Assembly (NCBI GenBank): GCA_951406725.2
Contig: OX597822.1
Location: 55,552,001 to 55,616,000 of the forward strand
Length of the DNA: 64,000 nt
DNA from: Octopus vulgaris
Taxonomy: Eukaryota
Direction: 5' to 3'
Position numbers and translations under genes: made by a program. Positions 29,504 to 63,675 of the stretch are shown in pieces. The notes under the pieces are model-generated. The model did no database searches, was not told where the DNA came from, and saw nothing but the letters and a program-made list of their open reading frames with translations. The stretch's first letter is position 1. Every line of letters begins with the position of its first letter.

Positions 29504-30003
29504 AGTAAGGAAAAATTTTTTTTTAAATGCAGAATGCTCAAATGAAAGAAAATTTTAATAAAATGAGAAATTGATAAAATATATAAATATATATTTATTC
29601 AACCGGTTTTCGTCATTGTATGACTTGTCAAGAATATTTATGTTTAAAAAGTTTCTTAAAAATTAGAAAGGGGAAAAAAAGAAAATTGCATTGTTTTTTG
29701 CAAAAGAATAATGATAAAAATGTACAAAAATTAAAAAATAAGTACTCCGATACATTGTGAGTTCGTTGTGTATCTTGAGTTTAATGATTGTTCACGAAAA
29801 AATTACCTTGAGGTATTAGGATCCAAAGGGATTAAGAGCATGTGTTGTTTGGTTTAATTCAGGATGTTGGCAGGACAGGAAGTAGTAGTAATTGTGGTCT
29901 ATTAAAATTTTCTTTCATTTGAGCATTCTGCATTTTTAAAAAAAAATTTCCTTACTTATCATTTCTCCACGTGCGGTCAACACAACCCCACCATTTATTG
30001 ATC
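29504..30003 (-). mobile_element. Mini PLE-terminus element: 57-bp inverted repeat, ~47-nt tail, hammerhead-like motif
   Basis: 29504-29560 pairs with 29900-29956; flanked by (TA)n. Confidence 0.7.
29596..29636 (-). ncRNA. Hammerhead-like motif with U3-A8 core
   Basis: TATTC TTGACAA GTCAT-ACA-ATGAC GAAAA CCGG TT GAATA; one extra A after GAAA. Confidence 0.55.
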
Positions 30004-30671
30004 TATATATATATATATATATATATATATATATATATATATATATATATATATACGAATGGAGTAGGAAAAACGTTTTTAGATGGTAAGGAAAAATACC
30101 GAGGGAAGTTTGTAATTTCCTTCATATCTACCCTCACTACCACTATGTATTGAATCAACAAGAGTTACGGAATGGAGTAGGCTTTCATAGCGAGCGAAAC
30201 TTCAAGAGTGGTAAGATCCACGTGTGGTGTATACCGCCGGCTGTTCTGCAGGCCAATGATATCTTGATTAGATTAAAGGTTACATTGTCGTAAGGAGGCA
30301 CATGTTGACGCAAGGAAGATTCAATCAGAATGTGTTGAGGGCACAGTATGAGAGGAGTATATACATGTAGGGAGAAATAAGTATTAGAAGAAGGGAAGAA
30401 AGAAGAAAATATAAGAGGCAGGAGGAACTTAAGCTAGGTCAGTTGACTGGTAGTAAGTAATAGAGTTGCTTTGGCTGAATTACAGAATTTAGTAAGGGGA
30501 TTGAAAAAATAGATAATTTGGAGGGGAAATATTTTTGGTCAAGGGGGAGAAAGAAACTGTGTATGAATAAAGTAAAGTAGGGTGAGGAATTTAAGCACGG
30601 TTATTTGACTGTTGATTTTCCGAGGGCTTTTTTGGCCGAATCACAGAAATTAGCAGAGGAGTATTATATAT

Positions 30672-31075
30672 ACTCTTTTACTAGTTTCAGTCATGTGACT
30701 GTGGCCATGCTGGAGCACCGCCTTTAGTCGAGCAAATCGACCCCCAGGACTTATTCCTTGTAAGCCTAGTGCTTATTTTATCGGTTCTCTTTTGCCGAAC
30801 AGCTAAGTTATGGGGACGTAAACACATCGGTAGTCAAGCGATGTTGGGAGGACAAACACATGTGTATATGTTTGTGTGTCTGTGTTTGTCCTCCCAACAT
30901 CGCCATATATACAACGGGCTTCCTTCAGCTTCCGTCTACCAAATCCACTCGAAAGGCTTTGGTCGGCCCGAGGCTATAGTAGAAGACACTCGCCCAAACT
31001 GCCACACAGTGGGACTGAACCCAGGACCATGTAGTTTGTAAGCAAGCTACTTACCACATAGCCACTCCTACGCCT
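30672..31075 (-). mobile_element. SINE family 1, full length
   Basis: All modules present. The internal microsatellite is replaced by a small hairpin (30841-30900). Confidence 0.9.
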
Positions 31076-31160
31076 ATATATATATATATATATATATATA
31101 TATATATATATATATATATATATATATATATATATATATATATATATATATATATATATA

Positions 31161-31494
31161 TACACGCCTACATACACCTCCACCACTCCATACTATGTTT
31201 ATATATATATATATATATATATATATATATATATATATATATAGCAATAATAATTCTCTAAATGAGATATAGACAGTAACTGCTCCATAACATAAGGGAC
31301 TAAAGCCATCTGAATATGGCTAGGGACAGGGCAGGGTGGTGGGGGTTGCAACAGTAACACCCCCACCACCCTGCCCTGTCCCTAGCCATATTCAGATGGC
31401 TTTAGTCCCTTATGTTATATATATATATATATATATATATATAAATATATATATAACATAGTATGGAGTGGTGGAGGTGTATGTAGGCGTGTGT
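31161..31494. repeat. Nested inverted repeats: perfect 60-bp-arm hairpin inside a ~39-bp outer inverted repeat
   Basis: 31287-31346 pairs with 31359-31418; 31161-31199 pairs with about 31456-31494. Confidence 0.85.
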
Positions 31495-32894
31495 ACTCGT
31501 AAATTTACGGGTAGAGGGGATAGGAGGGAGAAGGAGCTGAAATAAACGGAAAGAAAAAGTACGGAGGGAAGTTTATAATTATCCACCCTCACTACCTCTA
31601 TCTATTAAACCAACAATATTTCTCCCCTTTAATTTCTTGATTGTCAATTACAAACTTCTCTCCGTATTTTTCGTTATCATCTAAAAAAAAAAATCACCTC
31701 GACAGCTTCATACTTTAGCTTCGTTACCATGGCAAAAGTCTGTATACGTAGCCATTCTTCATTCTTATCTTCCTTCCCCACTAGACAACCAAATAATCTC
31801 ATGCAGTATGCCTGCCTCTCTTTCTCTCTGTCTTTCTCCCCCTCTCCTGCAGTCTATCTAACCACATGTCGTCTCTCCCTTGTCTTTTTCCTGTCATTTC
31901 TATCACCATTATTAACCTGTTGCTACTCTCTACTGTTCTCTTCTTATATCCCTTTACCTTTCTCAACTAAGATACTACTGGCCATCCTTCAACTCTTTAT
32001 ATCCACCCTTAAACCAACTCAATCTGTCTACCTACTTTTCCTCATTTCCTGTATCTCTTGTCCACCCCGACACTCTCTTGAGTACACTTGTTTTTCTTTA
32101 GTTGTACACACAATAACTAGGTCTATTTTATGTCTGTATTAATACAAAGCCACTCACCAACTTGTCACTATATAAAACAGACCACGAATTTCTCTTTTGG
32201 TTTTTGTTCTTCTTTTTACATCTGAAACGCTTCTGGTGGTAGTTTTCCCTTGCAATGAATAATTTCAATTGAATTTACTAACTTACCATATGACACGTTT
32301 GAGTCCATACCTACCTAGTAGTAACTCTACTTTATTAAAAAACAAGATGTGTAGCCGATGACCTATAAAAGCAACTGTTTCATTGCTTACACGTTTAGGA
32401 TTATTCTCTACTTAATTGTCCCGATCGCAATTAAACACATGAAATGTCATACAACTTGTGTTACATTCTTAGAATATCTGATCCAAGTTATTTTTCCTTT
32501 CATTCTGCTGCTGTTGTTGTTAGTAAGAATGCCAGGCCACTTCATCAATTAAATTAATCCCGATGTGTATCGGTGTTGATAACCTACTTTTTCAGATAAA
32601 TAAGTCCGGTAAGTCTTGTGCTTCTCTACGTTATTATTATATTAAAATCGATTCCTACCTTCAATTCGACAATTACAACTTCTAGTTCCACCAGGTAAGG
32701 GTATATCTATTAAATACGATTCAAGAGGAATATTACGCAGGTTTATCTTACCACTATCAAAGGTGCAAAGTCCATGGCCACAGCCCCTTCGTCCAGACCA
32801 AGAAAAAAATTCAGTTTGATAGTAACATATACAAGTAATCCATTCTTTAAGATAAGATAAGATAAGATATGATAAGATAAGAGCACGGCACTAA

Positions 32895-61358: not shown

Positions 61359-61360
61359 GA

Positions 61361-61996
61361 GGCGGCGAGCTGGCAGAAACGTTAGCGCGCCGGGCGAAAT
61401 GCTTAGCGATATTTCGTCTGTCGTTACGTTCTGAGTTCAAATTCCGCCGAGGTCGACTTTGCCTTTCATCCTTCCGGGGTCGATAAATTAAGTACCAGTT
61501 ACGCACTGGGGTCGATGTAATCGACTTAATACCTATGTCTGTCCTTGTTTGTTCCCTCTGTGTTTAGCCCCCTGTGGGTAATAAAGAAATAGGCATTTCG
61601 TCTGCGTTACATTCTGAGTTCAAATTCTTTCGGGGTCGATAAATTAAGTACCAGTTACGCACTGGGGTCGATGTAGTCGACTTAATCCGCTTGTCTGTCC
61701 TTGTTTGTCCTCTCTGTGTTTAGCCCCTTGTGGGTAGTAAAGAAATAGGTATTTTGCCTGTTGCTACGTTCTGAGTTCAAATTTGACCGAGATCGACTTT
61801 GCCTTTCATCCTTTCGGGGTCGATAATTTAAGTACCAGTTAAGCATTGGGGCCGATGTAATCGACTTAATCTGTTTGTCTGTCCTTGTTTGTCCTCTCTG
61901 TGTTTAGCCCCTTGTGGGCAGTAAAGAAATAGGTATTTTGCCCGTTGCTACGGTCTGAGTTCAAATTCGACCGAGGTCGACTTTGCCTTTCATCCT
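61361..61996 (+). mobile_element. Family-2 SINE head-to-tail array (one full unit plus three headless units)
   Basis: Units end AAAGAAATAGG at about 61592, 61749 and 61932. Confidence 0.9.
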
Positions 61997-62278
61997 ATAA
62001 ATGCACATATATATATATATACACACATATAGATACACATTTATATATACACACACATATATGCACATATACACTCATATATATATGTATATATATATAT
62101 ATATATATATATATAGGTGAGAAAGTTGGTGTGTGAAAGCACGTGGTTGAATATATAGAAAATAGTAAAAAGTGAAAAAGCTACAGAAGACTTGTTTTAG
62201 AAGGTTAAAAAATATATATTTGAGTCATTATGTCTGAGGAATGTTATAAATTTTTTTCATACAATGACATAATTTTTG

Positions 62279-62318
62279 AAGAAAGACCGGTTTCGCGTTC
62301 AGCTTTTCAAATTTCTTA
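62279..62318 (-). ncRNA. Hammerhead-like motif, U3-A8 core
   Basis: AAGAAA T TTGAAAA GC-TGAAC-GC GAAA CCGG TC TTTCTT. Confidence 0.55.
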
Positions 62319-63634
62319 CATCGTTATGTTTACGTTGAGAAGTGTGAAGGAGAGTGAAAGAGAGTTCCAGATAAGGGGAGGTAATAAGTGATTTCTTCCG
62401 GTGTAAGGGAGATAATCGCTTAATATTACTTGCCTTTCTTTTGGAGTGAGTTTCTCTGTATAAGAATGTTGGAATGGTTAAGTTTGGGCTTGTATTTTTC
62501 AATGAAGAATGTTTCCTTGTTTAGTCTAATTTGTGTTGGTGTTCCGATAGCACATTGGTAAAATGGAAAGATTAAAAATTGTGGTAGTAGTTGCTTTGCG
62601 CATTTCTCAATGTGCTCACTAAAGGGTATCATTCTGTATTCTGGGAATGCAATGTGTTGTCGATGCAGTGTGCATCTACATCTGAGTGATAGTCCCGTGG
62701 ACCCTACGTAGTTTTGGTGGCAGCCCGAGCATTTTATGACATAAATTATGTTTTCAGAGGCACAAGTAAAATCAGATTTGATCTTGAATTTCTGTCCCTC
62801 TTTGAAGAGGAATTCTGATCCTTCTAGCAGGTTTGGACATGTTGCACAGTTCGATCTACCACATTTTTTAACTTTTGCATCCGTAATTTCAGAAAGCAAT
62901 TTTGCCTTTGTGAGAATCTTTTTAAGTGATTTAGGTTGTTTGTAGCTTTTAATGATTTGGTGTGTGTTTAGAATTTCCTTTAATTTGGGGTCCTTATGAA
63001 GTATTGGTAAATTCTGGGTGATGATGGTGAAGGCTTCTTTGTTTCTGGGGTTGTATGTGGATATGTAAGGTAGTATTTTCGGGGAAGGTGTGTTGTTGTG
63101 TTGAACTTTTCAACACAACACCTGCTAGAAGGATCAGAATTCCTCTTCAAAGAGGGACAGAAATTCAAGATCAAATCTAATTTTACTTGTGCCTCTGAAA
63201 ACATAATTTATGTCATAAAATGCTCGGGCTGCCACCAAAACTACGTGGGGTCCACGGGACTATCACTCAGACGTAGATGCACACTGCATCGACAACACAT
63301 TGCATTCCCAGAATACAAAATGATACCCTTTAGTGAGCACATTGAGAAATGCGCAAAGCAACTACTACCACAATTTTTAATCTTTCCATTTTAACCAATG
63401 TGCTATCGGAACACCAACACAAATTAGACTAAACAAGGAAACATTCTTCATTGAAAAATACAAGCCCAAACTTAACCATTCCAACATTCTTATACAGAGA
63501 AACTCACTCCAAAAGAAAGGCAAGTAATATTAAGCGATTATCTCCCTTACACCGGAAGAAATCACTTATTACCTCCCCTTATCTGGAACTCTCTTTCACT
63601 CTCCTTCACACTTCTCAACGTAAACATAACGATG

Positions 63635-63675
63635 TAAGAAATTTGAAAAGCTGAACGCGAAACCGGTCTTTCTTA
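63635..63675 (+). ncRNA. Hammerhead-like motif, U3-A8 core (inverted copy)
   Basis: TAAGAAA T TTGAAAA GC-TGAAC-GC GAAA CCGG TC TTTCTTA. Confidence 0.55.

What the first reader, a model, noticed from the sequence alone, without database searches (positions are those of the whole stretch)
29596..63675. Two unrelated PLE families carry hammerhead folds with a U3-A8 core (UUGAnAA)
Seen: at 29596-29636 (-) and at 62279-62318 (-)/63635-63675 (+), stems I and II, GAAA and a palindromic CCGG stem III are in hammerhead order, but the core reads TTGACAA or TTGAAAA instead of CTGAnGA. The flanking sequences are unrelated. Known: C3 and G8 form a tertiary Watson-Crick pair in active hammerheads, so U3-A8 is the compensatory swap, and CUGAnGA pattern searches miss it. 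Inference: the double change in two families suggests selection for the fold, i.e. an under-counted ribozyme variant class. Caveat: each motif has one extra nucleotide (an A after GAAA, or a U before the core), and one stem II is only 2 bp.
Basis: partly seen in the sequence, partly recalled or inferred. Interest (0 to 1): 0.75.

Follow-up and report, generated by a model that had tools for sequence, protein, structure and literature searches.

The report
Known-variant hammerheads in sister Penelope elements
These three short motifs are copies of a predicted self-cutting RNA carried by two related jumping-gene families; their swapped core base pair is real and very common in this genome but already published, and these particular copies are one letter short at the cutting site, so they likely cut poorly or not at all.

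Summary
The motifs are real type I hammerheads in the 3' ends of Penelope-like elements (PLEs). U3-A8 is the family norm: 100 of the first 100 lineage-A and 91 of the first 100 lineage-B matches. With a CCGG stem III the genome holds 6,111 U3-A8, 113 C3-G8, 67 C3·A8 and 220 U3·G8 matches. Stems covary across many families. The families are sisters (60% protein identity), so the swap is probably one inherited event. And U3-A8 is published, in nature (Perreault 2011) and in PLEs with the same UUGAAAA core (Cervera 2014). The 'extra nucleotide' is a one-base loss at the cleavage site: sister subfamilies have perfect hammerheads. Short forms make up 65 and 47 of the first 100 matches, and insertions run past the cut site, so cleavage looks dispensable for mobility. 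Cleavage was not tested. The scan noted U3-A8 PLE hammerheads before, in this and other genomes.

The parts
29596..29636 (-). Family A type I hammerhead, U3-A8 core (29631-29625), 5-bp stem II, palindromic stem III; one base shorter at the cleavage site than sister subfamilies; predicted cut after 29601 (bulged-A register)
29504..29956 (-). 5'-truncated family A PLE insertion: 3' UTR only, with a 57-nt inverted tail, between (AT)n runs; full copies elsewhere carry the RT/GIY-YIG ORF ending about 640 nt upstream of the hammerhead
62279..62317 (-). Family B type I hammerhead, U3-A8 core (62310-62304), 2-bp stem II; lacks the A at position 1.1 found in sister copies
62429..63109 (-). C-terminal 227 aa of the family B ORF: C-x4-C-x2-C linker and GIY-YIG-type endonuclease region
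   Evidence: Pfam hit was obtained for the family A homologue (GIY-YIG, E 6e-4, below cut-off) and for family B RT (RVT_1, E 2e-8), none for this fragment itself
63635..63675 (+). Second family B hammerhead (other arm of the same inverted insertion); U3 = 63643, A8 = 63648, predicted cut after C17 = 63668
62151..63802 (.). Family B PLE insertion made of two 5'-truncated copies in inverted orientation, flanked by (AT)n
   Evidence: arms 62151-62578/63375-63802, 97%; 62559-62832/63120-63393, 99%

Best explanation
The motifs are type I hammerhead folds in the 3' ends of two sister Penelope-like retrotransposon families that likely inherited one U3-A8 core, and the window's copies belong to subfamilies one base short at the cleavage site, which likely leaves them weak or inactive. 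Mechanism: the element is transcribed in tandem; two hammerheads would pair through the self-complementary stem III and cut the RNA after N17 (inferred from published PLE hammerheads, not shown here). U3-A8 keeps the tertiary Watson-Crick pair that places nucleotide 8 in the active site (established knowledge). Reverse transcription starts at a fixed point 90-130 nt downstream of the hammerhead on uncut or circular RNA, so impaired hammerheads can still be copied (inferred from insertion ends and from Frangieh et al. 2024). The fold is maintained over long times in the clade, but selection on it is loose in individual subfamilies.
For: Position in PLEs with RT and GIY-YIG ORFs. 60% aa identity between the families; a third U3-A8 family is 55% identical to B. 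U3-A8 in 100 of the first 100 of 858 lineage-A matches and 91 of the first 100 of 1,869 lineage-B matches, with patterns that allowed C3 and G8 (counted by hand from the listings). Stem I was not part of the searches that collected most loci, yet pairs at 100 of 130 positions across 26 U3-A8 sequence groups (permutation mean 54.5, max 84) and 51 of 70 across 14 distinct 5' arms (mean 28.7, max 46). Seven different palindromes serve as stem III. Sister subfamilies have a perfect register: 35 of 100 (A), 53 of 100 (B). Short A copies form one clade (100/99); the B outgroup is full-length. 93 of 107 B and 67 of 76 A alignments run to the element end, with no pile-up at the cut. Published: U3-A8 in nature and active in vitro (PMC3088659); in PLEs (PMC4209133); PLE hammerhead not needed for insertion in vitro (PMC11167929).
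Against: No cleavage data. The short forms are abundant and young-looking (best copies 93-99% identical), which could mean they still work: a U insertion in GAAA (U13a) is described as likely tolerated, and G17 variants can be active in tertiary-stabilised hammerheads. In lineage B the short/full state needs 3-4 changes on the tree, so direction is not settled for every branch. A single origin of U3-A8 for A and B is parsimony from protein identity; no rooted protein tree was built. In one deep-mutational scan only the G:C swap rescued this pair, so U3-A8 activity is context-dependent (PMC9901934). The loci for the end analysis were collected by hammerhead patterns or homology and are not a random sample of insertions; 60 of the later loci were selected with stem-I letters, which affects only groups A and B.
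Confidence: 0.75

Rival explanations
1. The one-base-short forms are fully functional variants: family A uses a bulged A in GAAA with a GUU site, family B tolerates an extra U before the core, possibly with help from the element's protein.
For: Short forms are 65 and 47 of the first 100 matches. The active pairing in trans is still favourable: -13.6 (A) and -11.4 (B) kcal/mol against -15.0 and -12.1 for full sisters. U13a is a described natural insertion. A PLE hammerhead cleaved only when element protein was added.
Against: A two-base insertion near C3 cut activity about 425-fold in a natural variant. All 9 U3·G8 copies among the first 100 B matches are short forms, 9 of 47 against 0 of 53, although they are one clade. 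One B clade nested among short forms is full-length again.
Confidence: 0.2
2. U3-A8 arose twice independently in families A and B under selection for the fold.
For: The non-coding flanks do not align. The 3-8 pair does switch more than once in this genome: two joint switches in a retrozyme-like family.
Against: 60% aa identity; a third sister family shares the state; 0 C3 among the first 100 matches in either lineage.
Confidence: 0.07
3. The motifs are dead relics or serve only as a protein-binding or packaging structure; U3-A8 is drift, helped by CpG decay of C7-G8.
For: Mismatched cores have amplified: 220 U3·G8 and 67 C3·A8 matches, each mostly one subfamily. Insertions do not end at the cut. 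Monomers fold no better than shuffles (z -0.2 to 0.7).
Against: Catalytic-core letters, an H at position 17 in 16 of 17 well-paired groups, and palindromic stem III are kept while stems are rewritten. In the retrozyme-like family 91 of the first 100 of 1,342 matches have a Watson-Crick 3-8 pair (51 C-G, 40 U-A).
Confidence: 0.12

Closest known systems
U3-A8 minimal hammerheads of Cercyon PLEs, Schistosoma mansoni (Cervera & De la Pena 2014, PMC4209133; read: parts 1-2 of 4 of the text, supplement passages)
   Same: Type I hammerhead in PLE terminal repeats; U3-A8 covariation (about 1,300 hits); the supplement lists a PLE-associated UUGAAAA core, identical to family B; G10.1-C11.1 pair; palindromic stem III predicted to work as a dimer.
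   Different: Here there is no extra base between positions 9 and 10.1, stem II is short (1-5 bp instead of 7-8), stem III is a 6-8 nt palindrome, and U3-A8 is the dominant state of a whole clade.
Natural U3-A8 core variants (Perreault et al. 2011, PMC3088659; read: section 8 and passages)
   Same: States that C3-G8 covaries to U3-A8 in several natural hammerheads and was shown active in vitro; describes 1-2 bp stems II, weak palindromic stems III, U13a and 2a/2b insertions.
   Different: Reported there as rare; here about 10,000 net matches in one genome. Their insertions differ in base and context from the ones here.
Poseidon element PAc of Anolis (Frangieh et al. 2024, PMC11167929; read: passages)
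   Same: PLE with a 3' hammerhead; reverse transcription starts internally at a fixed site; hammerhead mutants still insert in vitro.
   Different: C3-G8 core; a different PLE clade; tested biochemically, which these are not.
Neptune/Nematis-type PLEs (Craig et al. 2021, PMC8557442; read: passages)
   Same: RT, then a CX2-5CxxC linker, then C-terminal GIY-YIG; inverted 5'-truncated insertions; (TA)n targets; 3' hammerhead.
   Different: Clade not fixed by phylogeny here; Neptune and Nematis were not told apart.
Small PLE hammerhead variants that cleave as dimers (Lunse et al. 2017)
   Same: Title and citation seen in a reference list; matches the short stem II and dimer design.
   Different: Paper not held; whether it covers U3-A8 was not seen.

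Membership tests
Type I hammerhead ribozyme | Core letters U4 G5 A6, A9, G12 A13 A14 and the A15.1-U16.1 pair in order | tested here: met
Type I hammerhead ribozyme | Watson-Crick pair between positions 3 and 8 | tested here: met
   U3-A8 in all three; 6,111 of 6,511 CCGG-class matches
Type I hammerhead ribozyme | Three helices, stem I open, supported by covariation | tested here: met
   (across families); monomer folding alone gives no signal
Type I hammerhead ribozyme | Exact register: stem I directly before N3, one H (A, C, U) at position 17, no core insertion | tested here: not met
   Window copies are one base short; met in 35 of 100 (A) and 53 of 100 (B) relatives
Type I hammerhead ribozyme | Site-specific self-cleavage | not testable with these tools
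   No assay; no raw-read RNA run listed
Type I hammerhead ribozyme | Tertiary contact between loops I and II | not tested
   none
PLE-associated hammerhead (Cervera 2014) | Lies in the terminal repeat / 3' UTR of an RT + GIY-YIG element | tested here: met
PLE-associated hammerhead (Cervera 2014) | Palindromic stem III and G10.1-C11.1 | tested here: met
   (G..C and, in the script, the palindrome were search conditions)
PLE-associated hammerhead (Cervera 2014) | Unpaired base between 9 and 10.1 (strict min-HHR consensus) | tested here: not met
   fits instead the paper's variants with a small palindromic helix III
Neptune/Nematis-type PLE | CX2-5CxxC linker before a C-terminal GIY-YIG | tested here: met
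   C-x4-C-x2-C in all rows of alignment A1
Neptune/Nematis-type PLE | Placement in the clade by RT phylogeny | not tested
   no reference sequences at hand
Non-LTR retrozyme | Non-coding 170-400 nt tandem repeat | tested here: not met
   Window elements are truncated coding PLEs; such repeats exist elsewhere in the genome

The most novel reading that the evidence does not exclude
This genome records hammerhead core evolution in action. U3-A8 is the ancestral, working core of a large PLE and retrozyme radiation, has switched back to C3-G8 at least twice through mismatched intermediates that themselves amplified, and two successful PLE lineages lost a base at the cleavage site and kept spreading, one B clade regaining it. 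That would be natural evidence that PLE hammerhead cleavage is dispensable in the short term but selected in the long term, and a ready-made allelic series for testing it.
Probability: 0.4. Interest if true: 0.5.

Novelty: new member of a known kind. Interest (0 to 1): 0.27.

Why it matters
The variant itself is known, so the headline claim is not new. What is useful: hammerhead surveys that demand CUGAnGA would miss about ten thousand motifs in this genome, and the families give matched natural pairs (full and short register; U-A, C-G, U·G and C·A cores) with which to test the open question of what PLE hammerheads are for.

Tried and rejected
Rfam scan of the window: no hammerhead family among the 150 of 205 rows listed; the list is microsatellite noise. 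Monomer folding: no better than shuffles. Sequencing runs: no RNA holder listed on record, only contigs, so RNA ends at the cut site could not be examined; a second laying, on the family A stretch, gave no result, so family A was not checked in other organisms. Metagenome scan for related PLEs: 162 pattern hits, none confirmed, so no cross-species tree. A family with 7,478 matches first looked like a huge U3·G8 class; re-reading the register showed a C3-G8 min-hammerhead with U6 and an extra base, so it was dropped as evidence on the 3-8 pair. A lineage that seemed to have both cores (L299/L300) was not supported: L299 has no clean stem I. The idea that one-base losses are scars of cutting and rejoining was considered; insertion ends do not pile up at the cut (3 starts and 1 end within 6 nt among 107 B alignments, none among 76 A), so it has no support here. 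The independent-pairs test of 3-8 covariation gave only 2 pairs, not significant. Lunse 2017 and Przybilski & Hammann 2007 were not held; the second is cited only through Perreault 2011. File 1 of the Cervera 2014 supplement could not be searched and may bear on which variants were already listed. Literature searches listed no paper on U3-A8 hammerheads in cephalopod PLEs; the library lacks most subscription journals.
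Full report
Observation. A relaxed scan of both strands found only these three U3-A8 folds and one C3-G8 fold in the window. The two family B motifs are arms of a single inverted insertion at 62151-63802. The window is G000:C9:55552001-55616000 in a 2.8-Gb animal genome, probably an octopus (inference, not tested).

What carries them. Both are repeats: 2,138 and 1,143 first-look candidates, of which 40 each were scored. 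Longer copies carry an ORF with reverse transcriptase (RVT_1, E 2e-8), a C-x4-C-x2-C linker and a GIY-YIG-like end (E 6e-4, below Pfam's cut-off), the layout of Neptune/Nematis-type PLEs in Craig et al. 2021. The hammerhead lies about 110 nt (B) or 640 nt (A) after the ORF. The families are not unrelated: 172 of 287 residues are identical, and a third U3-A8 family is 55% identical to B. Only the non-coding flanks have diverged beyond alignment. One inherited U3-A8 change is the simplest reading; a rooted tree was not built.

Is U3-A8 fixed? Yes. None of the 43 family B rows and none of the 38 family A rows that span the core in the best-hit loci has C3 or G8 (some rows are the same place seen twice). 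In position-ordered listings whose patterns allowed C3 and G8, 100 of the first 100 of 858 A-lineage matches and 91 of the first 100 of 1,869 B-lineage matches are U3-A8; the other 9 are U3·G8. Contigs of four runs under four organism labels show no other letter at 5% or more at positions 3 or 8 of family B (contigs, not allele counts). Genome-wide, with a G..C stem II and CCGG stem III: U3-A8 6,111 (control 3), C3-G8 113 (0), C3·A8 67 (1), U3·G8 220 (0). Without the CCGG condition: U3-A8 11,262 (control 1,402) and C3-G8 4,247 (control 481). These patterns exclude hammerheads with an extra base after A9, among them one C3-G8-type family with 7,478 matches, so U3-A8 is very common but not shown to be the overall majority. 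Copy counts reflect a few amplifications.

Is the fold selected? Across 26 U3-A8 sequence groups from the loci held, stem I pairs at 100 of 130 positions against a permutation mean of 54.5 (max 84 in 20,000); with one group per distinct 5' arm, 51 of 70 against 28.7. All four Watson-Crick pair types occur at stem I pair 1, and seven different palindromes fill stem III (palindromes were a filter of the script). In a 350-360 nt tandem retrozyme-like family the pair itself switches: 51 C-G, 40 U-A, 7 U·G and 2 C·A among the first 100 of 1,342 matches. On a tree of 38 rows (of 70 found; near-duplicates and poorly aligning rows left out) C3-G8 arises at least twice among U3-A8 rows, once with a C3·A8 row at its base. 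Two independent pairs are too few for significance, and the root is a midpoint.

The extra nucleotide. Sister subfamilies have perfect hammerheads. In lineage A, 35 of 100 have an 8-nt palindrome, an H17 and a 5-bp stem I; 65 of 100, including the window's, are one base shorter there and form one clade (18 of 44 usable rows in the tree). They must use either a bulged A in GAAA or G17. In lineage B, 53 of 100 are full and 47 are short. The state needs 3-4 changes on a 34-row tree (of 70 found) with a full-length outgroup, and one full clade is nested among short ones. All 9 U3·G8 copies are short forms, but they are one clade. Published insertions near C3 strongly impair cleavage, U13a is thought tolerable (PMC3088659), and G17 lowers rates 8- to 100-fold even in stabilised hammerheads (PMC3884650, passages).

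How it likely works. Monomers are unstable; pairing of two copies through stem III is favourable (-11 to -15 kcal/mol for one site in trans), as proposed for PLE hammerheads, which cleave weakly and only as dimers (PMC4209133). Genomic copies are not cut products: 93 of 107 B and 67 of 76 A alignments continue 90-130 nt past the predicted cut to a fixed end. This matches internal initiation on uncut RNA, and the finding that hammerhead mutants still insert, in the Anolis PLE (PMC11167929). So cleavage probably processes tandem transcripts but is not needed for each jump, which would let short and mismatched subfamilies spread. All of this paragraph beyond the sequence counts is inference.

Novelty. 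U3-A8 in nature is stated in Perreault 2011. U3-A8 in PLEs, with about 1,300 hits in S. mansoni, is in Cervera & De la Pena 2014, whose supplement shows a PLE-associated UUGAAAA core. A deep-mutational scan of one type III hammerhead found only the G:C swap rescued (PMC9901934, passages), so activity depends on context. Passages of PMC7229834 and PMC6765202 and part 1 of bioRxiv 10.64898/2026.07.22.740005 gave background only. Earlier notes of this scan reached the same 'known variant' verdict in this and other genomes. Verdict: new members of a known kind; interest 0.27.

Noticed in passing
window 63925-63990 (-); G000 genome-wide, L221-L248: Decayed copy of another PLE family's min-hammerhead; 7,478 pattern matches. 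In its true register the core is CUGUUGA (U6 instead of the conserved A6) in 16 of 19 distinct copies read: a very abundant family with a core change expected to impair cleavage.
   Followed up: partly
window about 19193-19251 (-): A C3-G8 type I hammerhead-like fold with an 8-nt palindromic stem III, 4-bp stem II with a long loop and 5-bp stem I. No match over the motif among the blast rows printed; may be an old copy or chance.
   Followed up: partly
L091-L120, L122, L130, L142, L145, L169, L190 (for example G000:C1:20002279-20004541): Non-coding 353-360 nt tandem repeats with a hammerhead (retrozyme-like) that show all four 3-8 states and at least two joint switches between U-A and C-G.
   Followed up: yes
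L214-L217 (G000:C1:8134356-8135463): Tandem repeat of about 360 nt with a perfect U3-A8 hammerhead and a CGCG palindrome; probably the family in earlier finding e1-8669336.
   Followed up: partly
L070, L147, L151, L156, L075, L144, L149: Lineage B relatives whose stem II is reduced to 1-2 base pairs around a 4-6 nt loop while stems I and III are perfect.
   Followed up: no
L123-L125 (G000:C1:94342442-94343026): Short array, about 280 nt period, of family A hammerhead halves in hairpin arrangement between (AT)n runs.
   Followed up: no
window 16402-17027 (-), 53549-55863 (-): Fragments that look like a Pif1-type helicase (Helitron-like; by recalled motifs, no family search run).
   Followed up: no
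window 31310-31395: Long near-perfect G+C-rich hairpin whose arm letters resemble part of the retrozyme-like monomer (compared by eye only).
   Followed up: no
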